This document shows, in pieces, positions 23,596-36,855 of a stretch of DNA of 64,000 nucleotides; position 1 is the first letter of the stretch; the number at the start of each line of letters is the position of its first letter. The notes beneath the pieces were generated by a model. That model was not told the DNA's origin and searched no databases. It saw only the letters and a program-made list of their open reading frames with translations. The DNA is taken from NCBI GenBank assembly GCA_965249615.1, contig CBDFMI010000006.1:444132-508131 (forward strand), read 5' to 3'. Both the position numbers and the translations under genes were made by a program. The DNA is from a bacterium (GTDB lineage: Bacteria > UBA8248 > JACPRG01 > G963555815).

Positions 23596-25074
23596 CTATG
23601 GGACCAGGGCGATGGCCGACGCCCCTTGGAAGAAAGGGGCCGCTGAGGCCTTAACCGCGGAGAGCAGGGGGTCGGGATAGAGCCCGATCAGGAGGACTCC
23701 GACCACCATCAAGCCGAGGGCGAGACGGAGTGGGACGGAGGTGGAGATTTCGACCTTTCCGGCCGGTTCCACCATGTACATATTCACGACGACCTTGAAG
23801 TAGTAGTAGACGGAGAGGACGCTGTTCAGGACCCCGATGAGGGCCAGCCAGATATAGCCTGACTCGATGGCCGCCGAGAAGAGATAGAACTTCCCGACAA
23901 AACCCGCCGTCGGCGGGACCCCCGCCAGAGAGAGAAAGAAGACGACAAAGCCGATGCCGGCCAGGGGGTGGGCCCTCGCGAGTCCCCGAAAATCCTCCAC
24001 CCGGTCTCCTCGGAAGTTTTGGCGGCACAGGAGGATCACCATGGCGAAGGCGCCCATGTTCATGAAGATGTAGACGGCCAGGTAGAGGAGGACGCTTGCC
24101 ATCCCGATCTCGCTGCCGACGACGAGGCCGATCATGACGTAGCCGGCATGGGCCACCGAAGAGTAGGCCAGGAGCCGTTTCAGGTTGGACTGAACCATGG
24201 CGGCGATGTTGCCCCAGGTCATGCTGAAGACGGCCAGGAGCCAGAGGAGAATGGCCCACTGGTCGGCGATCCCCTCGAAGGCGACGGCGAAGATCCGGAG
24301 CAACCCCGCGAAGGCCGCCGCCTTGGTCCCCACGCTCATGAAGGCCGTGATGGAGGTGGGGGCTCCCTGGTAGGCGTCCGGGGCCCACATGTGGAAGGGG
24401 ACGAGGGCGATTTTGAAGGCGAACCCAGCCACGATCATGATGACAGAGAGGGTGAGGAGAATATTGGGGCCTGTCATCTCCCCGAAGGCGGCATGCATGG
24501 CGGCGAGGTTCGTCGTCCCCGTAATGCCGTAAGCGAGTGCGATTCCGTAGAGGATGATCCCCGAACTGAAAGCCCCCAGGAGAAAGTATTTGATCCCTCC
24601 CTCTTGGGACAAGAGATCGCGCTTCATGAAGCCGACCAGCATGTAGATGGGGATGGAGAGAAGCTCCATGCCGATGTAGATGGTCAGGAGGTCGCTCCCC
24701 CCGGCCATCACCATCATCCCGATAACGCTGAAGAGGATCAGGGCGTAGTACTCCCCCAGGTGAATCTCCTCTATCGAGAGGTATCGCAGGGAGATGAGGA
24801 CCGTGAGGACGGTGATCGCCAGAAAGATGAACTTGAAGAAGATGGCGAAGGAGTCCACCCGGTACATGTCGCTGAAGAGGCTGGCCTCCATCCCGATCAG
24901 GGGGAGGGTGAGGAGGCCCGTCACGACGACCCCGAAAAGCGTCAGGAGGCCCAAGAGCGCCTTTCGCCTCTGGGGGACAAAGAGGTCCACCAAAATCACG
25001 AGGCAAACGAGGACCGTCATGGCGATCTCCGGCATGATCGCAAAAAGGTTGACGGCGGGGAGCTTAAGCGGCAT
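23596..25074 (-). CDS. nuoN: NADH-quinone oxidoreductase subunit N
   Basis: 14-TM antiporter-like subunit pattern. Last gene of the nuo operon. Confidence 0.9.
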   Translation of the reverse strand: MPLKLPAVNLFAIMPEIAMTVLVCLVILVDLFVPQRRKALLGLLTLFGVVVTGLLTLPLIGMEASLFSDMYRVDSFAIFFKFIFLAITVLTVLISLRYLSIEEIHLGEYYALILFSVIGMMVMAGGSDLLTIYIGMELLSIPIYMLVGFMKRDLLSQEGGIKYFLLGAFSSGIILYGIALAYGITGTTNLAAMHAAFGEMTGPNILLTLSVIMIVAGFAFKIALVPFHMWAPDAYQGAPTSITAFMSVGTKAAAFAGLLRIFAVAFEGIADQWAILLWLLAVFSMTWGNIAAMVQSNLKRLLAYSSVAHAGYVMIGLVVGSEIGMASVLLYLAVYIFMNMGAFAMVILLCRQNFRGDRVEDFRGLARAHPLAGIGFVVFFLSLAGVPPTAGFVGKFYLFSAAIESGYIWLALIGVLNSVLSVYYYFKVVVNMYMVEPAGKVEISTSVPLRLALGLMVVGVLLIGLYPDPLLSAVKASAAPFFQGASAIALVP

Positions 25075-25077
25075 CTC

Positions 25078-26673
25078 CTACCTGCTCCATTCTGTGGTCA
25101 GGTACTGGTGCTGTCTCAAGGCCTCAGACGCCTGGGCGGACAGGCTTTCGGGCGTCCCCCGGGCCAGCTCCACGTGCTGGATGAGGTTCTTGACGCTCGG
25201 TTCCATGATTTCGAGGAAAGGCTTGGGGTACATCCCGATCCAGAACATGAGAAGGAGGATGGGGAGCATGTAGGCGACTTCGCGGCGGTTCAAGTCCGGG
25301 AGGTTTTGGTTCTCCTCATGGGTCACGGCCCCGAACATCATCCGCTGGAAGAGCCAGAGCATATAGCCCGCCCCGAGGACGATCCCCGTGACAGCGAAGG
25401 CGGCGTACACCGTGCTCGTCTGAAAGACCCCAAGGAGGATGAGGAATTCTCCCACGAAGCCGTTGAGGCCGGGAAGCCCAATGGACGAGAACATGGCGAT
25501 GGCGAAGACCACCGTGAAGACCGGCATCACGCGCGCGAGGCCGCCGTAGTCGGCGATCATTCGGCTGTGTCTTCGCTCATAGAGGATCCCCACGATCAAG
25601 AAGAGGGCCCCGGTGGAGAGACCGTGGTTCAGGTTCTGAAGGAGGGCCCCAAGAAGACCCTGGGGGTTCAGGGCGAAGATCCCCAGCATGACGAACCCGA
25701 GATGGCTCACGGAGCTATAGGCCACCAATTTTTTAATGTCTTTCTGGGCCATGGCCACAAGGGCCCCGTAGATGATCCCGATGATGGCCAGAAGGGCGAT
25801 GAAGGGGACGAGGTTGAAACTGGCCCTGGGCAGCAGGGGGAGGCTGAAGCGGACGAAGCCGTAGGTCCCCATCTTGAGGAGCACCCCGGCCAGGATGACA
25901 CTCCCCGCCGTGGGGGCCTCCACGTGGGCGTCGGGAAGCCAGGTGTGGAAGGGGAACAAGGGGACCTTGATGGCGAAGCCCACAAAGAGGGCGAGGAAGA
26001 TCCAGAACTGAAAGTTCTCGGGCAGCTTCGGCGCCATCCGGTAGAGCTCAAGCAAATTAAAGGTGAACTCGCCGGAGCCGTAGATGGGGTCGGCGTTCAG
26101 GAAGTAAAGGGCCAGAAAACCCAGGAGGAGGAGGACGCTTCCGAAGAGTGTGTAGAGGAAAAACTTGATGGCGGCGTAGAGCTTCCGAGCCCCCCCCCAG
26201 ATGCCGATGAGGAAATACATGGGGACCAGCATGACCTCCCAGAAGACGTAGAACAGGAAAACGTCAAGGGCCATGAAGACCCCCAGCATCCCTGTCTCCA
26301 GGATGAGGAGGCTCACGTAGTACTCTTTTTGCCGCTCTCCGATGTTGCTGAAGGAGCAGAGAACCGCGACGGAGCTGAGGAGCGTGGTCAGGATGATGAG
26401 GGGGAGGCTGATCCCATCGATGCCAAAGAAGTATTGGACCCCGATGGATGGGATCCACTCCGCGCGTTCGACGAACTGCATTTGGACATTGCTCGGCTCA
26501 AAGTAGGGGATCATGAAGAGTGAGGAAAAGAGGGAGATCAGCGAGACGCCGAAGGCGAACCATTTGATGACGAGTGGTCGCTGCCTGGAGAAGAGGAGCA
26601 TGATCAAGACGGCCCCTACGATGGGGACGTAGGCCGTCATCGAAAGGACGGGGAAGCCGAGGGCGTTTGTCAT
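25078..26673 (-). CDS. nuoM: NADH-quinone oxidoreductase subunit M
   Basis: Antiporter-like subunit with WLPDAHVEAPTAGSVILAGVLLK motif. Confidence 0.9.
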   Translation of the reverse strand: MTNALGFPVLSMTAYVPIVGAVLIMLLFSRQRPLVIKWFAFGVSLISLFSSLFMIPYFEPSNVQMQFVERAEWIPSIGVQYFFGIDGISLPLIILTTLLSSVAVLCSFSNIGERQKEYYVSLLILETGMLGVFMALDVFLFYVFWEVMLVPMYFLIGIWGGARKLYAAIKFFLYTLFGSVLLLLGFLALYFLNADPIYGSGEFTFNLLELYRMAPKLPENFQFWIFLALFVGFAIKVPLFPFHTWLPDAHVEAPTAGSVILAGVLLKMGTYGFVRFSLPLLPRASFNLVPFIALLAIIGIIYGALVAMAQKDIKKLVAYSSVSHLGFVMLGIFALNPQGLLGALLQNLNHGLSTGALFLIVGILYERRHSRMIADYGGLARVMPVFTVVFAIAMFSSIGLPGLNGFVGEFLILLGVFQTSTVYAAFAVTGIVLGAGYMLWLFQRMMFGAVTHEENQNLPDLNRREVAYMLPILLLMFWIGMYPKPFLEIMEPSVKNLIQHVELARGTPESLSAQASEALRQHQYLTTEWSR

Positions 26674-28748: not shown

Positions 28749-29044
28749 TTCAACAGGTTGATCTCGTCGACGTTTAGGGCGGCTCTTTGCCGGTTGATGG
28801 AGATGATGAGGGCGAGTCCGACGGCGGCCTCGGCCGCCGCCACCGTGATGACAAAGATGGCGAAGACCTGCCCCGTTAGGTTCCCATGGGCCCTGGAGAA
28901 GGCTATCAGGGTCAGGTTGACGGCGTTCAGCATGAGTTCGATGGACATCAGGATGATCATGATGTTTCGCCTGGTCAGGACCCCGACGGCCCCAATCAGG
29001 AAGATGATGCCCCCCAGGGCGAGGTAGTAAGGAATGGGAACCAT
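28742..29044 (-). CDS. nuoK: NADH-quinone oxidoreductase subunit K
   Basis: 100 aa, 3 TM, with the ...[12 protein letters not shown]... motif. Confidence 0.9.
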
Positions 29045-29566
29045 TTACTTAATCTCTCGCTTGGCCAGCACGATGGCCCCGATCATGGCCGCCAGGAGGA
29101 GGAGGGAGGCCACCTCAAAGGGGAAGAGGAACTGGGTGTAGAGAACGCCCCCGAAGGCCTCGGTGTTGCCTATCTCCGCGGCGGCCTTCGCCCCCTCTGC
29201 GACAACCCCCGCCGGGGGCAGCAATTCGAAGAATCCCCCCAACAGGATGACCAGGAACTCGGCGGCCAGGAGCCCACCGATGATGAAAGCGAAGGCCCGC
29301 TGGCGGTTCCACTGACGGACCCCCATCTGTTCGCGCACATTAACGAGCATAATGACGAAGACGTAGAGCATCATGATGGCCCCGGCGTAGATGAGGATCT
29401 GGATGGCAGCGAGAAACTCCGCGCCCAGCATGACGTAAAGGGCAGCCACGAAGAAGAAGCTGAGGAGGAGAGCGAGGGCGCTGTGGACCACGTTTCTCAG
29501 GCTGATGACCATCACGGAGGCGGCGATCATCCCGACCGCGAAGATGAGAAAGAATGGCCATTCCAT
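29045..29566 (-). CDS. nuoJ: NADH-quinone oxidoreductase subunit J
   Basis: 173 aa membrane subunit, positioned between K and H. Confidence 0.85.
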   Translation of the reverse strand: MEWPFFLIFAVGMIAASVMVISLRNVVHSALALLLSFFFVAALYVMLGAEFLAAIQILIYAGAIMMLYVFVIMLVNVREQMGVRQWNRQRAFAFIIGGLLAAEFLVILLGGFFELLPPAGVVAEGAKAAAEIGNTEAFGGVLYTQFLFPFEVASLLLLAAMIGAIVLAKREIK

Positions 29567-29579
29567 CTTGGAATCCCCT

Positions 29580-30662
29580 TTAAACGAGCTGCAGGACGAT
29601 ACCGGTGATAAAAATGTTCAAGAGAGCCAGCGGGAACATCATCTTCCACCCCAGCGCCATGAGCCGGTCATAGCGAAAGCGCGGCAGGGTCCCCCTGATC
29701 CAGATGAACATGAACATCCCGAACAGCACCTTGAGGAAGAACCAGAGAGGTCCTGAGATGAGGACGGCCTTCGTCACCCCCCCGATGTTCTGGACCAGGG
29801 AGGCCAACCCCACAGAGGCGGCGCCGACGGCCGATGCCACCAGGAAGGTGACCAGGTCCACGCCGCCCGAGATGATGGTTTCCAGGAACTGGGGGATTTG
29901 CCAGCCCCCGAAGAAGAGGATCGCCCCGATGGAGCAGATCACCATCATGTTGGCGTACTCAGCCAGGAAGAAGAAGGCGAACTTCATGCCGCTGTACTCG
30001 GTGTGGAAGCCCCCCACCAGCTCTGTCTCGGCCTCGGGGAGGTCGAAGGGGAGGCGGTTGGTCTCGGCGAGCCCGGCGACGAAGTAGAGGACGAAAGCCA
30101 GGGGCTGATAGAAGATGAACCAGACGTTCTTCTGGGCCTCGACGATCTCAAGGAGGTTCAGGGACCCGGCCACCATGAGAGGGCCGATTAGGGCGAACCC
30201 CAAAAAAATCTCGTAGCTGATGAGTTGGGCCGCGCTCCGGAACCCCCCCAGCAGGGAATACTTGCTCCCCGAGGCCCAGCCCGCCATGACGATGCCGAAG
30301 ACACCGAGGGAGGAGATCCCGAGGATGTAGAGGATCCCGATGTTGATGTTGGCGATGAAGAAGTTCCCCGAGATGGGGATGACCGAGTAGACGATGAAGG
30401 CGGGGATGAGGGCGAAGAGCGGGGCCATCAGGAAGACCGGTCGATCCGCCTGGTGCGGGATGATGTCTTCCTTGAGGAAGAGTTTTAGACCGTCGGCGAT
30501 GGGCTGAAGGAGGCCGTGGTAGCCGACCCGCATGGGCCCCATGCGCACCTGAATGTGCCCGATGACCTTCCGCTCGAAGTAGACCATGTAGGCCACCAGG
30601 AACGAGACCGCCCCCCAGATAATCAGGATCTTGATGAGGGCGAAACCAACCTCAAGCCACAT
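29580..30662 (-). CDS. nuoH: NADH-quinone oxidoreductase subunit H
   Basis: [32 protein letters not shown] and [26 protein letters not shown] motifs. Confidence 0.95.
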
Positions 30663-33714: not shown

Positions 33715-34032
33715 TCACGGCTTGAAGAAGACCTCGGTCAGACAGGGGTCGATCTCTGGTTTCAATTCCAGATAACGCTCACTTCGCTGGAGCTGGTTGA
33801 AGAGGGCCGTCTTTCCGGCTACGCCCAGTTCTGACCAGTTGACGCAAGCCTTGGCCTCCTTAACGAGGAGGTCCAGGCGCTTCGCCCGCTCTTTCTCATC
33901 TTCCTCATCGCCCGTCTCGGCCAGGGCCCGAAGGCGCTGGATGCACCCGGAGAGGGTGTCTTCCCGGGAAGGTAGAGACTCGAAGATATAGAGATAGCCC
34001 TCTATCCGCTGACGCAGGGCCTGCGCGTCCAT
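33715..34032 (-). CDS. Hypothetical acidic protein (105 aa) upstream of nuoA
   Basis: The internal ATG at 34032 gives MDAQALRQRIEGYLY.... The upstream part of the track ORF is R/P-rich and implausible. No family recognised. Confidence 0.35.
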   Translation of the reverse strand: MDAQALRQRIEGYLYIFESLPSREDTLSGCIQRLRALAETGDEEDEKERAKRLDLLVKEAKACVNWSELGVAGKTALFNQLQRSERYLELKPEIDPCLTEVFFKP

Positions 34033-34267
34033 GGCCCCCCACTTCTTCTTCTCGCTCACCAGGCAACTCCGCCGTCTTAGGGCTTTCCGCGGGCGAGGAC
34101 CGTGGTCCCCACCATCGCGGCGAACCGGATAAGGAAACGACCTCAAAAGGGCGAAAGAAGATCTCTGAAGATAAAGCGCCTTGAGCGATCCTGGTTCCTT
34201 TCCTTGATTTATAGAGCTTCGCAGGCGAAAATGCACCCTCTTTTGCTTTCACGAAAGAGGTTTCGGC

Positions 34268-34867
34268 ATGGCCTGGAAGTTTCCAGCGGAGGAGATGCAT
34301 CTCCTCATCCGTCCCACCCGCCTTCGAACCACCCCTCCTTTTAAAACCCTCCGGCGGATGGGCCTTCGCCGCGGGATGGTCGCCGTGGACCTCGGGTGTG
34401 GACCCGGCTATTTCGCCATTCCCGCTGCCAAGATCGTGGGAGAGAAGGGGCGGGTCTTCGCCTGCGACACCTCGCGGGCGATGTTGCGGGTGGCAAGGGA
34501 GCGGGCCGCTCAGGCCGGCGTCTCGAACCTTGTCCTAAAGCCGTCGACGGAATACGTCTCTTCCTTTGCCAAAGGGGCGGCCGACTTCTGCCTGCTCAGT
34601 TATGTCCTTCACGAGGTCGATGACCCCCCTCGCCTCCTTCGGGAGGCGAGGCGTCTCCTTCGCCCGGGAGGGATCTTCGCCATCATCGACTGGAAGAAGC
34701 GGCCGACCGAAACCGGACCTCCCCTCGAGGACCGGATCTCCACCGCTCGCATGGGGGCGATGCTCCGCAGGCTTGGGTTTAGCGTGGGGGGCCGGTGGAG
34801 CCCCAAGGCAGAAAACTATGTCCTCGTCGGCACCTTGTCGCCGGGGCCCACGAAAGGCTCGAAATAG
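34268..34867 (+). CDS. Class I SAM-dependent methyltransferase
   Basis: VAVDLGCGPGYF (motif I), RVFACDTS and LRPGGIFAIIDW. Confidence 0.8.
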   Translation: MAWKFPAEEMHLLIRPTRLRTTPPFKTLRRMGLRRGMVAVDLGCGPGYFAIPAAKIVGEKGRVFACDTSRAMLRVARERAAQAGVSNLVLKPSTEYVSSFAKGAADFCLLSYVLHEVDDPPRLLREARRLLRPGGIFAIIDWKKRPTETGPPLEDRISTARMGAMLRRLGFSVGGRWSPKAENYVLVGTLSPGPTKGSK

Positions 34868-34953
34868 AAATTCACTGGGCCTGGGGGATTACGAAGAGCC
34901 AGGGGGTTTCCAGGACATTTTCTTTAAATCAGAAAGCGGGAGGGGAGCTCATC

Positions 34954-35610
34954 ATGAATCAGGCCCTCGATGTCACCTGCTATGTCTGCTACGTCTGACC
35001 CTTTGCCTATCGGGCCACGGAGTGGCTCGAACGTCTAAGGGAGAGTCGGCCCCTTCGGGTCGTCTATAAGCCCTTCATCCTGGAGCAGGTGAACTTCCAG
35101 GAGAAGCGGGGTCCGGAATGGAAGATCTGGGAGGACGACTTTTTCCCCAGCCGGGACCTTCCGCCCCTCGAGGCGGCCAGGTGCGCTGCCCTCCAGGGGG
35201 AGGAGGCTTTTGGGCGATTCCATCTCCTCCTCTTTCGAGCGAGACATCAGAAGAATTTTGACATCACGAACCAGCTCATCCTCCTCGACGTGGCCAAGGA
35301 GGCGGGGCTCGATGGAGAGCGCTTCGCCAGTGATCTCAAGAGCCGAAGCCAGTTGGAGGGGGTCGCCCGAGGGCACATGGAGGCCGTCGAGAAGCATGGG
35401 GTCTTCGGCGTCCCGACACTCATCTTCAACGGCGGGAGGCCCCTCTTCGTGAAGCTGGGGGAGGGGAAGTGGGAGGGGAAGGAAGACCAAAAACTCCTGG
35501 AACAACTTCTCAAGCTCTCGGTGGATCAGCCCTATGTCCTAGAGGTGAAACAGCCGAAATCGGCCGTCCTCGCCGAGGAGGCTGAGAAGAAATATCAGGC
35601 CTATCCCTAA
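34954..35610 (+). CDS. DsbA-like thioredoxin-fold oxidoreductase, candidate selenoprotein (in-frame TGA at 34996-34998)
   Basis: ATG 34954 lies after GGGAGGGGA. It reads MNQALDVTCYVCYV-TGA-PFAYRATEWLERL... in one frame with track ORF 35089-35610, which carries the DsbA body and the cis-Pro loop GVFGVPTLIF. Total length is 218 codons, typical for the family. Confidence 0.6.
35010..35030 (+). promoter_or_regulatory. SECIS-like stem-loop 11 nt downstream of the in-frame TGA
   Basis: UCGGGCCA(C)-GGA-(G)UGGCUCGA forms an 8-9 bp stem with one G-U pair. The apical loop contains GG. The spacer 34999-35009 is 11 nt. Confidence 0.5.
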
Positions 35611-35751
35611 GAAGGTTCTGAAGAAGTCTCAGGGGGTCGCCTGAGAATCCACGCCGTCGCTTGCCCGTCTGAGGCAGGCTGGCTATATTGGGTTTCGTTT
35701 AGAGAGGAGATGGAAGTTCTCTTCGTTTTCGCGCGGTAGGGCGGGTCAATT

Positions 35752-35853
35752 ATGGACTTGGATTTTCTCTTCGTCGTCGGCGGGATTATCATCCTGGCGG
35801 GGATGGCCTTTATTGTCCTCCTCGGCATCCTTTGGGTATTTCGCCGGGGATAA
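35752..35853 (+). CDS. Possible 33-aa single-TM small protein
   Basis: MDLDFLFVVGGIIILAGMAFIVLLGILWVFRRG, a hydrophobic helix with an RR anchor. The RBS is weak and the ORF is below the track cutoff. Confidence 0.2.
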   Translation: MDLDFLFVVGGIIILAGMAFIVLLGILWVFRRG

Positions 35854-35896
35854 CCCTCACTTTTCCCATCCCACAGAAAAATCCCGCAGAAAAAAC

Positions 35897-35924
35897 TTGA
35901 CGAGGCAAAATAGGTGTATATACT
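35897..35924 (+). promoter_or_regulatory. Strong sigma70-like promoter (TTGACG-N16-TATACT); copy B of the 40-nt conserved element
   Basis: TTGACG at 35897-35902 and TATACT at 35919-35924, about 60 nt upstream of the SDR gene. Confidence 0.5.
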
Positions 35925-35982
35925 CATTTAGATAACACTGGAGACACACGAGCACCTAAACCGATGAGGAGGGGTCGTTGAA

Positions 35983-36711
35983 ATGAGACTAGAGGGGGAA
36001 AGCGTATTGGTCACCGGCGCCAATCGCGGCATAGGCGCAGCACTCGTTAACGCCTTGCTTGGCAAAGGTGTGCGAAAAGTCTATGCCGCCGCAAGGAATC
36101 CCGACAGCCTGCCGGATTTTGGAGATAGCCGTGTTGTACCTATAGCTATCGATATCACTAACACCGAGCAGGTCAAACAAGCGGCCAAGACTGCGGCCGA
36201 TGTCGAGTTACTCATCAACAACGCAGGCGTCGCCGCCTTCACGAGCCTGCTGGATGGTCCCATCGACCTGATAAAGCGAGACATGGACACCAACTACTAC
36301 GGCACTCTGGATATGGTTCGACGCTTTGTGCCCGTGTTGGAAACCAAGACCGATGCGGCAATTGTAAATGTGGTAACCATTGGCGCCTTTGTGAATTTCC
36401 CGATGTTGGGAGGCTATTGCACGTCTAAGTCGGCACTGTTCTCACTTTCCCAGGGAATCCGAATCGAACTCGCGGCTAAGAGCATTGCGATCCACACCGT
36501 TAATCCCGGGCCAATCGACACTGACATGGCCAAGGATTTTCAGGCAGAGAAAACCAGTCCGGAGGTGACCGCAGAGAACACTCTGACAGCGCTGGAAAGC
36601 GGTGAGGTCGATATTTTCCCTGACGCCGGTAGCCAGGGGATGATTAAGGTATGGAAAAGCGACTATCGTGCCCTCGAGCAAATGGTAGCCGAAATGCATA
36701 ACGCGACTTAG
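35983..36711 (+). CDS. Short-chain dehydrogenase/reductase (SDR) family oxidoreductase
   Basis: VLVTGANRGIGAAL (TGxxxGIG), NNAG and S...YCTSK catalytic motif. Visibly more A/T-rich codon third positions than the surrounding genes. Confidence 0.85.
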   Translation: MRLEGESVLVTGANRGIGAALVNALLGKGVRKVYAAARNPDSLPDFGDSRVVPIAIDITNTEQVKQAAKTAADVELLINNAGVAAFTSLLDGPIDLIKRDMDTNYYGTLDMVRRFVPVLETKTDAAIVNVVTIGAFVNFPMLGGYCTSKSALFSLSQGIRIELAAKSIAIHTVNPGPIDTDMAKDFQAEKTSPEVTAENTLTALESGEVDIFPDAGSQGMIKVWKSDYRALEQMVAEMHNAT

Positions 36712-36804
36712 AAGGGAAAGGAATCGACCAGCAAAAAGGGCACCTATGGGAGACTGTTCGCTGAACGTTCTCCCATCTCCCATTGGCTCTGCTTTTTCAG
36801 AAAG

Positions 36805-36830
36805 AAAGTCCCGAGGAGCCTCGGGACTTT
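36805..36830. terminator. Bidirectional terminator hairpin between convergent SDR and aminotransferase genes
   Basis: Perfect 12-bp inverted repeat AAAGTCCCGAGG/CCTCGGGACTTT, with TTTTT upstream and T-rich flanks. Confidence 0.65.
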
Positions 36831-36855
36831 GAGATGCAGAAGGGCCGGAAGCCTT

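What the first reader, a model, noticed from the sequence alone, without database searches (positions are those of the whole stretch)
34954..35610. Candidate selenoprotein: DsbA-like oxidoreductase with C-x-x-C-x-x-U motif and SECIS-like hairpin, split by the ORF caller
Seen: ATG 34954 (RBS GGGAGGGGA) opens MNQALDVTCYVCYV, then TGA (34996-34998), and continues in the same frame as PFAYRATEWLERL... into the DsbA-like body, which has the GVFGVPTLIF cis-Pro loop. The redox-motif region (CYVC-YV-U) is therefore on the 5' side of the TGA and the rest of the thioredoxin fold is on the 3' side. Neither piece makes sense alone, and the joined product is 218 aa. Eleven nt after the TGA, an 8-9 bp hairpin (35010-35030) has a GG-containing apical loop. 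That matches the spacing and loop features of bacterial SECIS elements. Established: thioredoxin-fold CxxU/UxxC selenoproteins, including DsbA-like ones, exist in bacteria. Caveat: this window also contains genes broken by TAA and TAG, so a TGG/TGC-to-TGA pseudogene is the alternative.
Basis: partly seen in the sequence, partly recalled or inferred. Interest (0 to 1): 0.7.

Follow-up and report, generated by a model that had tools for sequence, protein, structure and literature searches.

The report
Mis-annotated DsbA-like selenoprotein gene
This is a real but ordinary selenoprotein gene: a cytoplasmic thioredoxin-fold enzyme whose catalytic cysteine is replaced by selenocysteine encoded by an in-frame TGA, belonging to an already catalogued family that gene callers routinely truncate.

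Summary
ATG 34954, in-frame TGA 34996-34998 and TAA 35608-35610 give a 218-aa DSBA-domain protein, and a 9-bp hairpin with a GGA loop lies at 35010-35030.

The TGA is not a lesion. The same column is TGA in 71 of 80 species-level genomes that carry a homologue. It is TGT/TGC (Cys) in the other 9 and in distant full-length proteins. The 14 upstream codons are under purifying selection. The hairpin meets the published bacterial SECIS rules and constrains synonymous sites.

The motif needs correcting. Sec aligns with the first Cys of the canonical C-P-x-C, and the second Cys is Ala (U-P-F-A). The closest solved relative is the single-Cys cytoplasmic protein DR2335 of Deinococcus, whose function is unknown. 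Only the Cys at -3 is conserved; the Cys at -6 is not.

The 2026 selenoproteome catalogue already lists "DsbA-like protein form 2, DxxUP". The window belongs to a sister clade in which that Asp is Cys, and a second clade-specific Cys (C77) appears with it.

Sec machinery could not be checked in this genome. Verdict: genuine selenoprotein, new member of a known kind, modest interest.

The parts
34938..34946 (+). Shine-Dalgarno-like GGGAGGGGA, 7 nt upstream of the start codon
   Evidence: Read directly from the sequence. The start at ATG 34954 agrees with homologue N-termini such as MAETLDVTCYVCYV-U and MAEKLDVTCYVCYV-U.
34954..35610 (+). Complete selenoprotein CDS, 218 aa including Sec15, ending in TAA 35608-35610. 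It is a DR2335-type DsbA-like thioredoxin-fold protein.
   Evidence: Translation. Pfam PF01323 over residues 7-186, E 8.5e-15. Profile match to PDB 7DK9, E 3.7e-37. AF2 model of clade member P0018, pLDDT 87, with top Foldseek hit 7DKA/7DK9.
34987..34989 (+). Cys12 codon (TGC), 3 residues before Sec. It replaces an otherwise invariant Asp and is a candidate resolving residue (C-x-x-U).
   Evidence: Cys in 42 of 42 clade A sequences and Asp in all 40 other family members. TGC/TGT synonymous variation with an invariant amino acid.
34996..34998 (+). In-frame TGA read as selenocysteine (Sec15). It lies at the N-cap of helix alpha1 and aligns with the nucleophilic Cys of C-P-x-C.
   Evidence: TGA at this column in the window, 71 of 80 loci and L085; TGT/TGC in 9 loci. 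Cys in full-length database homologues. The modelled helix starts one residue later.
35010..35030 (+). bSECIS-like hairpin: 9 bp in the window (7-bp core 35012-35028) and apical loop GGA at 35019-35021, 20 nt after the UGA.
   Evidence: MFE fold. Passes the published bSECIS rules with local dG -14.3 kcal/mol (rules from PMC13188914). The core helix is paired in nearly all of 36 distinct clade A sequences (4 cells unpaired at the outermost core pair, 1 at the third). Synonymous-site constraint.
35089..35610 (+). The truncated ORF that public gene callers report (173 aa, GTG start). It lacks strand beta1 and the active site.
   Evidence: P0001 is 99% identical, 173 aa. Gene calls on ENA contigs. 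GenBank relatives are annotated as shortened 'DsbA family protein'.
35182..35184 (+). Cys77 codon (TGC), a second clade-specific invariant Cys, located in the helical insert domain
   Evidence: Cys in 42 of 42 clade A sequences; Ala or Ser in the others.
35404..35418 (+). F-G-V-P-T segment containing the cis-Pro (Pro154) loop of the thioredoxin fold
   Evidence: F151, G152 and P154 are invariant, and V153 and T155 nearly invariant, across 28 family members.

Best explanation
Window 34954-35610 encodes one 218-aa cytoplasmic selenoprotein of the DsbA-like thioredoxin fold. It belongs to the subfamily typified by the single-Cys protein DR2335 of Deinococcus radiodurans.

UGA 34996-34998 is recoded to selenocysteine. 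The hairpin at 35010-35030, with apical loop GGA 20 nt downstream, acts as the bacterial SECIS element that recruits SelB carrying Sec-tRNA(Sec).

Sec15 sits at the N-terminus of helix alpha1, opposite the cis-Pro loop. This is the position of the nucleophilic Cys in C-P-x-C oxidoreductases. Because the +3 position is Ala, catalysis must proceed through a single selenol that attacks a disulfide, mixed disulfide or other electrophilic substrate.

In this clade the otherwise invariant Asp at -3 is Cys12, and Ala77 is Cys77. These residues most likely resolve the selenenyl intermediate through a Se-S bond. In the Asp-containing clades an external low-molecular-weight thiol would do this instead.

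What is shown: the TGA/Cys column, the conserved hairpin, the fold and the residue pattern. What is inferred: actual Sec insertion, cytoplasmic location, the resolving role of C12/C77, and a thiol-dependent reductase or antioxidant function. The physiological substrate is unknown, including for the solved Cys homologue.
For: (1) Comparative TGA. 71 of 80 loci from distinct GTDB species, plus the window and L085, have TGA at the aligned column. They are labelled Nitrospinota, Tectomicrobia, Thermodesulfobacteriota or Deltaproteobacteria, Dehalococcoidia/SAR202 and other Chloroflexota. Nine loci have TGT/TGC.

(2) Full-length database homologues read C-P-[FW]-A-Y with Cys at that column. Nearly all close homologues are N-terminally truncated just after it. 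P0018's 'W' at the column is a TGA translated with another genetic code.

(3) The upstream codons are coding. C12 is 41/41 (TGC 34, TGT 7), Y13 is 41/41 (TAC/TAT) and V14 is 37/41 (GTC/GTT).

(4) SECIS. The window hairpin meets all four published bSECIS criteria (criteria in PMC13188914). 58 of 73 Sec sites pass, against 1 of 9 Cys sites and 4.4% of 3212 other in-frame positions in the same genes. Local dG averages -10.0 for Sec sites and -7.2 kcal/mol for Cys sites, Mann-Whitney p = 0.002. The closing pair is C-G, U-G or U-A and never C.A. The stem Ala codon is GCC in 40/40, while an Ala codon outside the stem uses GCC, GCA and GCT. The stem Arg codon ends in a purine in 41/41, while Arg+12 is mostly CGT/CGC. 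Clade B keeps a different hairpin (CAGCC-GUGU-GGCUG) at the same distance, and 0 of 500 shuffles reach its covariation score.

(5) TGA is the commonest ordinary stop among long ORFs of the window (29 of 56), so the codon is not reassigned.

(6) Fold. AF2 model with pLDDT 87. The best PDB matches are DR2335 (7DKA/7DK9, TM 0.72-0.79), then Rv2466c, FrnE and kappa-class GST.

(7) Lineage. MAGs labelled Nitrospinota/Nitrospinaceae (placed in GTDB phylum UBA8248) and Dehalococcoidia rank among the most selenoprotein-rich bacteria in BSepDB, with 46-54 genes each (PMC13326102).

(8) The family is catalogued: 'DsbA-like protein form 2, PF01323, DxxUP' (PMC13188914).
Against: No selA, selB or selD homologue and no tRNA were found in the 64-kb window or in the fetched flanks. 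Sec-decoding capacity is therefore not shown for this genome, and no second selenoprotein gene is visible in the window.

Rfam has no matching SECIS model; the only hits are chance-level snoRNA matches.

Covariation in clade A is weak because the hairpin sequence hardly varies: one pair shows changes on both sides and 7 of 500 shuffles reach the score. Part of the stem is imposed by the conserved Ala and Trp codons.

Fifteen of 73 Sec sites fail my simple implementation of the bSECIS rules. [quoted passage not shown]

The distances between C12, Sec15 and C77 could not be measured, because the tools do not expose model coordinates. No conserved operon partner points to a substrate.
Confidence: 0.88

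Rival explanations
1. Pseudogene: a TGC or TGG codon mutated to TGA in this genome, and the gene is dead.
For: No Sec machinery is visible in the window.
Against: The same TGA occurs at the same column in 71 species-level genomes from several phyla and in two independent assemblies of this population. Both flanks are under purifying selection. The full DSBA domain spans the TGA. The SECIS-like hairpin is conserved.
Confidence: 0.01
2. The functional product is the downstream ORF only, from GTG 35089 or another internal start, as public annotation has it. The 14-codon upstream piece would then be a separate leader peptide or non-coding.
For: Gene callers and GenBank annotate exactly this: P0001 at 173 aa, MDP6482584.1 at 196 aa, MBW2145707.1 at 189 aa.
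Against: The truncated product would lack strand beta1, the N-cap of helix alpha1 and the catalytic residue of the fold. Internal 'starts' differ between homologues (MEWLERL..., MTYK..., MNFQ...), which is what a caller taking the first available codon would produce. The upstream peptide aligns with the beta1 to active-site segment of the Cys homologues, DR2335 and Rv2466c.
Confidence: 0.04
3. UGA is decoded by something other than Sec: either a reassigned code (UGA as Trp or Gly), or SECIS-independent near-cognate readthrough inserting Trp or Cys.
For: One pipeline translated a homologue with W at this column (P0018). Sec insertion has not been shown experimentally.
Against: TGA terminates 29 of 56 long ORFs in the window. 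Homologues have Cys at the column, never Trp or Gly. A hairpin meeting the bSECIS rules is conserved at Sec sites and largely absent at Cys sites. The host lineages are known Sec users (PMC13326102).
Confidence: 0.05

Closest known systems
DsbA-like selenoprotein 'form 2' (PF01323, motif DxxUP; representative MDP6049977.1) in the 2026 prokaryotic selenoproteome catalogue (PMC13188914, citing Peng et al. 2016)
   Same: Same Pfam domain, a single Sec followed by Pro, and no Cys at +3. The Dehalococcoidia/SAR202 relatives recovered here (clade B, L040-L080) read D-x-x-U-P exactly. They align end to end with the window protein.
   Different: The window's clade has Cys instead of Asp at -3 (C-x-x-U-P) and an extra invariant Cys77. 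I could not fetch the representative sequence, so identity of the two families rests on motif and domain only.
DR2335 (DR_2335) of Deinococcus radiodurans, PDB 7DK9 and 7DKA (C24S)
   Same: Closest solved structure: profile E 3.7e-37, Foldseek TM 0.72-0.79. Motif Y-F-D-F-L-C-P-Y-A-W-R-G, with its single conserved Cys24 at the Sec column and Ala at +3. Predicted cytoplasmic (PMC8945050, PMC6300522).
   Different: It has Cys rather than Sec, Asp at -3 and no Cys77 equivalent. Its function has not been reported, so it supplies a fold but not a mechanism.
Rv2466c of Mycobacterium tuberculosis (mycothiol-dependent reductase; PDB 4NXI, 4ZIL, 5XUR; Pfam PF22234)
   Same: Homologous over the full length (E 3e-17). 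It has the same D-x-x-C-P start of helix alpha1 and is a cytoplasmic DsbA-like reductase. PF22234 was precomputed on many family members.
   Different: Rv2466c has the full C-P-W-C dithiol motif, whereas here +3 is Ala. The window protein's PF22234 score (14.7 bits) is below the curated cut-off of 27.
DsbA-like selenoprotein 'form 1' (UxxC; Sargasso Sea 2005, COG2761/FrnE-like)
   Same: A DSBA-domain selenoprotein with Sec at the first position of the canonical motif (PMC1088965).
   Different: Form 1 keeps the second Cys (U-x-x-C). The window protein is U-P-F-A.
Periplasmic DsbA of E. coli
   Same: Thioredoxin fold with a helical insert and a cis-Pro loop. It gives weak profile matches limited to the C-terminal half (E about 1e-3).
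   Different: The window protein has no signal peptide, since beta1 starts at about residue 5. It has no C-P-H-C motif and no DsbB partner nearby. It is not a disulfide-forming oxidase by any tested criterion.

Membership tests
Bacterial selenoprotein gene (Sec-UGA plus bSECIS) | The in-frame UGA is conserved among orthologues, with coding sequence conserved on both sides | tested here: met
   TGA in the window, 71 of 80 loci and L085. Upstream codons show synonymous change only.
Bacterial selenoprotein gene (Sec-UGA plus bSECIS) | Cys-containing homologues align with the UGA | tested here: met
   Nine loci have TGT/TGC. Ten full-length database proteins have C-P-[FW]-A. DR2335 Cys24 aligns here.
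Bacterial selenoprotein gene (Sec-UGA plus bSECIS) | Downstream stem-loop: 3-9 nt apical loop, upper stem of at least 4 bp, G in the first two loop positions, 16-37 nt from the UGA, MFE of -7.5 kcal/mol or lower | tested here: met
   Window values are loop GGA, 9 bp, spacing 20 nt and -14.3 kcal/mol. The criteria come from PMC13188914. 58 of 73 Sec sites pass, against a 4.4% background.
Bacterial selenoprotein gene (Sec-UGA plus bSECIS) | selA, selB, selC (tRNA-Sec) and selD are present in the same genome | not testable with these tools
   None is in the 64-kb window or the locus flanks. The only support is at lineage level, from BSepDB.
Bacterial selenoprotein gene (Sec-UGA plus bSECIS) | Selenium is demonstrably incorporated at the UGA position | not testable with these tools
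   This needs 75Se labelling or mass spectrometry.
DsbA-like selenoprotein form 2 (DxxUP) | PF01323 DSBA domain containing one Sec | tested here: met
   and the translation.
DsbA-like selenoprotein form 2 (DxxUP) | Motif D-x-x-U-P | tested here: not met
   The window reads C-Y-V-U-P. Asp at -3 is present in all 31 clade B Sec forms and all 9 Cys forms, and is Cys in all 42 clade A members. The U-P part is met.
DsbA-like selenoprotein form 2 (DxxUP) | Sequence homology to the catalogue's representative, MDP6049977.1 | not tested
   The accession could not be retrieved with the available tools. The link is inferred from motif and Pfam domain alone.
DsbA-like selenoprotein form 1 (UxxC) | Motif U-x-x-C | tested here: not met
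   The +3 residue is Ala in the window and in all of clade A (U-P-[FY]-A). It is Val or Ala in clade B, and Ala, Val or Ser in the Cys forms. It is never Cys.
DR2335-type single-Cys cytoplasmic DsbA-like proteins | Full-length homology to DR2335, with its single catalytic Cys at the aligned position | tested here: met
   Profile E 3.7e-37 over residues 21-230 of 7DK9. Cys24 aligns with the Sec column. It is the Foldseek top hit.
DR2335-type single-Cys cytoplasmic DsbA-like proteins | No signal peptide (cytoplasmic) | tested here: met
   Beta1 begins at about residue 5 of the model, and there is no N-terminal hydrophobic stretch. This is by inspection only; no signal-peptide predictor was run.
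Periplasmic DsbA oxidase | Signal peptide and a C-P-H-C type dithiol motif | tested here: not met

The most novel reading that the evidence does not exclude
Within a family that otherwise works with one Sec or Cys and an invariant Asp at -3, the window's clade has rebuilt the active site. This clade covers MAGs labelled Nitrospinota, Tectomicrobia and Thermodesulfobacteriota.

The change is a correlated double substitution: Asp12 to Cys and Ala77 to Cys, 42 of 42 against 0 of 40. It produces a C-x-x-U motif shifted three residues upstream of the canonical C-x-x-C register, plus a distal Cys.

This could be a self-resolving Cys-Sec-Cys relay, turning an enzyme that depends on an external thiol into an autonomous one. 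It could equally be a three-chalcogen metal or metalloid binding site. I did not find it described in the catalogues I could read.
Probability: 0.3. Interest if true: 0.5.

Novelty: new member of a known kind. Interest (0 to 1): 0.3.

Why it matters
The practical value is an annotation fix. This gene and dozens of orthologues are deposited as N-terminally truncated 'DsbA family' or hypothetical proteins that lack their active site. NCBIfam has no model for the family, so the error will keep spreading.

Biologically, the result adds one more thiol-oxidoreductase selenoprotein to lineages already known to be selenoprotein-rich. It also shows that in the genomes sampled, most members of the DR2335-type family use Sec rather than Cys (71 of 80). 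That makes the uncharacterised Deinococcus structure a useful template.

The clade-specific Cys12/Cys77 pair offers a cheap, testable handle on how a one-residue Sec or Cys active site acquires internal resolving residues.

Tried and rejected
- Rfam on 34900-35150 gave only chance-level snoRNA hits and no SECIS family.
- ARAGORN found no tRNA in the window.
- tblastn with E. coli SelA, SelB and SelD against the window and 80 loci found nothing. This says nothing about the rest of the genome.
- Two scans of the window for further in-frame-TGA genes with coding signal on both sides recovered only adjacent genes sharing a frame and, in the second scan, the target itself.
- The first related-loci run, with the broad alignment, failed for lack of a conserved stretch. 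A narrower alignment worked.
I modelled clade member P0018 instead. Model coordinates are not exposed, so the C12, Sec15 and C77 distances were not obtained.
- The afdb50 fold library was unavailable.
- Neighbourhood clustering found no partner gene conserved across clades. Only lineage-level synteny appeared: DUF971 downstream and DUF4202 upstream in parts of clade A.
- The promoter and terminator scan was uninformative.
- Supplements of Peng et al. 2016 and the BSepDB paper gave no sequence-level detail on 'form 2'. The deep-Sep paper does not mention DsbA. Haft and Tolstoy 2025 is not held. No paper on DR2335 function was found.
The long + strand ORFs near 24-29.6 kb are antisense shadows of nuo genes.

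Full report
**Observation.**
The region reads as the first stage described. GGGAGGGGA lies at 34938-34946. ATG 34954 opens MNQALDVTCYVCYV, followed by TGA 34996-34998. The same frame then continues as PFAYRATEWLERL... for 203 codons to TAA 35608-35610.

With the TGA counted as one residue the product is 218 aa. It matches Pfam DSBA (PF01323) over residues 7-186 (E 8.5e-15), so the domain spans the TGA.

The hairpin UCGGGCCAC-GGA-GUGGCUCGA at 35010-35030 is part of the minimum-energy fold. As a single sequence it is not remarkable against shuffles (z = -1.7).

Public gene calls start the gene at GTG 35089, giving 173 aa (P0001). Two independent ENA assemblies of the same population carry the identical TGA.

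**The TGA column across relatives.**
A protein search returned about 60 relatives. Nearly all close ones are N-terminally truncated. They begin at MEWLERLKK..., MTYK... or later, just after the TGA column.

The distant full-length relatives read ...Y-F-D-[YF]-L-C-P-[FW]-A-Y-R..., with Cys aligned to the window's TGA (alignment A1).

I then fetched DNA for 80 homologous loci, each from a different GTDB species genome, and read the column directly.
- 71 loci have TGA.
- 9 loci have TGT or TGC.
- The one close relative that appeared to have Trp at the column (P0018) has TGA in its DNA. The gene caller had used a different genetic code.

The TGA-bearing genomes are labelled Nitrospinota/Nitrospinaceae, Candidatus Tectomicrobia, Thermodesulfobacteriota or Deltaproteobacteria, Dehalococcoidia/SAR202, other Chloroflexota, or simply 'bacterium'. 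The Cys forms are from Dormibacterota, Thermomicrobiales, Chloroflexia and other Chloroflexota.

Upstream of the TGA the peptide is conserved with synonymous variation. Cys12 is 41/41 with TGC or TGT, Tyr13 is 41/41 with TAC or TAT, and Val14 is 37/41 with GTC or GTT. The 14 upstream codons are therefore translated.

TGA is also the commonest ordinary stop among long ORFs of the window (29 of 56), which excludes a reassigned code.

Together these results dispose of the pseudogene alternative. They also satisfy the classical Sec/Cys-pair criterion for a selenoprotein.

**The hairpin.**
The sequences fall into two clades.

Clade A contains the window, L001-L039, L071 and L085. After the UGA it encodes P-[YF]-A-Y-R-A-[MT]-E-W-L. 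Its hairpin is GGGCCAY-GGA-RUGGCUC.
- The 7-bp core is paired in nearly all 36 distinct sequences. Five pairs are paired in 36/36, the third in 35/36 and the outermost core pair in 32/36.
- The closing pair occurs as C-G (11), U-G (15) or U-A (10), and never as C.A.

Clade B contains the Chloroflexota Sec forms. It encodes P-[FYW]-V-[HY]-N-A-A-V-W-L and forms a different hairpin, (G)CAGCC-GUGU-GGCUG(C), at the same distance. None of 500 column shuffles reaches its observed covariation score or its fraction of paired cells.

Synonymous sites show RNA-level constraint.
- The Ala codon inside the stem is GCC in 40 of 40 sequences. The Ala codon three positions upstream, outside the stem, uses GCC, GCA and GCT.
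- The Arg codon in the stem ends in a purine in 41 of 41 sequences, which lets it pair with U. Arg+12 is mostly CGT or CGC.

I applied the published bacterial SECIS rules (PMC13188914): a 3-9 nt loop, a stem of at least 4 bp, G in the first two loop positions, 16-37 nt from the UGA, and MFE of -7.5 kcal/mol or lower.
- The window passes, with loop GGA, 9 bp, 20 nt spacing and -14.3 kcal/mol.
- 58 of 73 Sec sites pass.
- 1 of 9 Cys sites passes.
- 4.4% of 3212 other in-frame positions in the same genes pass.

Local folding energy is lower at Sec sites than at Cys sites (mean -10.0 against -7.2 kcal/mol, Mann-Whitney p = 0.002).

There are caveats. The sequences are related, so these are not independent trials. 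Part of the stem is dictated by the conserved Ala and Trp codons. Several clade B members have an AUGU loop that fails the G rule. Rfam has no matching family.

**What the protein is.**
An AlphaFold2 model of clade A member P0018, built with a 37-sequence alignment, has mean pLDDT 87. Strand beta1 covers residues 5-11, Cys lies at 12, the Sec position at 15, and helix alpha1 starts at 16. Sec therefore sits at the helix N-cap, where the nucleophilic Cys of thioredoxin-fold C-x-x-C enzymes sits.

The best solved matches are as follows.
- DR2335 of Deinococcus radiodurans (7DK9, and the C24S mutant 7DKA) is the top hit, with Foldseek E about 4e-10, TM 0.72-0.79 and profile E 3.7e-37.
- Rv2466c follows, with profile E 3e-17.
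- FrnE, HCCA isomerase and kappa-class GST come next.
- Periplasmic DsbAs match only weakly.

The printed alignments show DR2335 as Y-F-D-F-L-C24-P-Y-A-W-R-G and Rv2466c as F-W-F-D-P-L-C-P-W-C-W. The window's Sec therefore corresponds to the first Cys of C-P-x-C. The second Cys is Ala in this family.

The motif is thus U-P-F-A with Cys at -3. It is not a C-x-x-C-x-x-U unit lying wholly on the 5' side.

DR_2335 is described in two reviews as a predicted cytoplasmic DsbA-like protein with a single conserved Cys and no functional data (PMC8945050, PMC6300522).

The window protein has no room for a signal peptide, so it is not a periplasmic disulfide-forming DsbA.

**Clade-specific residues.**
I built a full-length alignment of all 82 translated genes.
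- The residue at -3 is Cys in 42 of 42 clade A members. It is Asp in all 31 clade B Sec forms and all 9 Cys forms, and also in DR2335 and Rv2466c.
- Residue 77 is Cys in 42 of 42 clade A members and Ala or Ser elsewhere.

I infer that C12, C77 or both act as internal resolving residues for a selenenyl intermediate. I could not measure distances, because model coordinates are not exposed.

**Context.**
The gene lies between a UbiE-type methyltransferase (34268-34867) and an SDR (35983-36711), next to a nuoA-N operon on the opposite strand.

No neighbour is conserved across clades. A DUF971 protein follows the gene in 17 clade A loci, and RNase III and FtsY follow it in many Chloroflexota loci. 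Context therefore gives no clue to a substrate.

**Sec machinery.**
None of selA, selB or selD, and no tRNA, is present in the window or the fetched flanks.

Indirect support comes from BSepDB. It ranks MAGs labelled Nitrospinota/Nitrospinaceae (GTDB phylum UBA8248) and Dehalococcoidia among the ten most selenoprotein-rich bacteria, with 46-54 genes each (PMC13326102).

**Comparison with what is known.**
DsbA-like selenoproteins have been known since the Sargasso Sea analysis (UxxC; PMC1088965). They rank among the top 20 bacterial selenoprotein families (PMC5029168).

The 2026 catalogue separates 'form 1' (UxxC) from 'form 2' (PF01323, DxxUP, MDP6049977.1). Clade B matches the form 2 motif exactly. 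The window's clade A is its sister, with CxxUP.

I could not retrieve the representative sequence, so the equation with form 2 rests on motif and domain.

NCBIfam has no model for this family. The only hit is a sub-threshold match to a DsbG-like selenolipoprotein model. GenBank entries are truncated 'DsbA family protein' records.

**Verdict.**
This is a genuine selenoprotein gene (confidence about 0.9). It is correctly spotted and mis-annotated in public data, and it belongs to an already catalogued kind.

The active-site reading needed correction. The function, presumably a thiol-dependent reductase or antioxidant, remains inferred. The Cys12/Cys77 signature of this clade is the only element that may be new.

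Noticed in passing
window 34987-34989 and 35182-35184; the same columns in L001-L039, L071 and L085: Cys12 (-3 from Sec) and Cys77 are both invariant in the window's clade (42/42). They are replaced by Asp and by Ala or Ser in every other family member (40/40). This is a correlated, clade-specific double substitution next to the Sec.
   Followed up: partly
window 35611-36855, compared with L001 3655-3998: The SDR gene at 35983-36711 has lower GC3 (0.62) than its neighbours (0.75-0.8). It is present in the window and in ENA assemblies L083 and L084. L001 is about 95% identical in the flanking genes but has no match to it. There the gap between the DsbA-like gene and the aminotransferase is about 340 nt instead of 1245 nt. 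This suggests a recent insertion or deletion.
   Followed up: partly
L014 3689-4043 and 2292-2892; the same positions in L008 and other clade A loci: In 17 clade A genomes the gene immediately downstream encodes a 112-117 aa DUF971/GBBH-like_N protein (PF06155, E 1.6e-17) with a C-P-C-A-N-C motif. In 23 genomes a DUF4202 protein lies upstream. Neither is present in the window.
   Followed up: partly
window 23968-26523 (+) and 28886-29608 (+): These long + strand ORFs have GC1 of about 0.85. They are antisense shadows of the nuoM/N and nuoJ/K genes on the - strand, not genes. The nuo operon (nuoA to nuoM) is intact according to the gene calls on L083.
   Followed up: partly
L085 416-418 (protein P0018): A public pipeline translated this homologue's Sec-TGA as Trp, apparently using genetic code 4 on a short Logan contig. 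That produced a full-length protein with a spurious W at the active site.
   Followed up: yes
window 33715-34236 (-): This hypothetical ORF has no Pfam match. Against L001 it aligns in two pieces in different frames, and the gene call on L083 is only 114 aa. Its true start, or its integrity, is uncertain.
   Followed up: no
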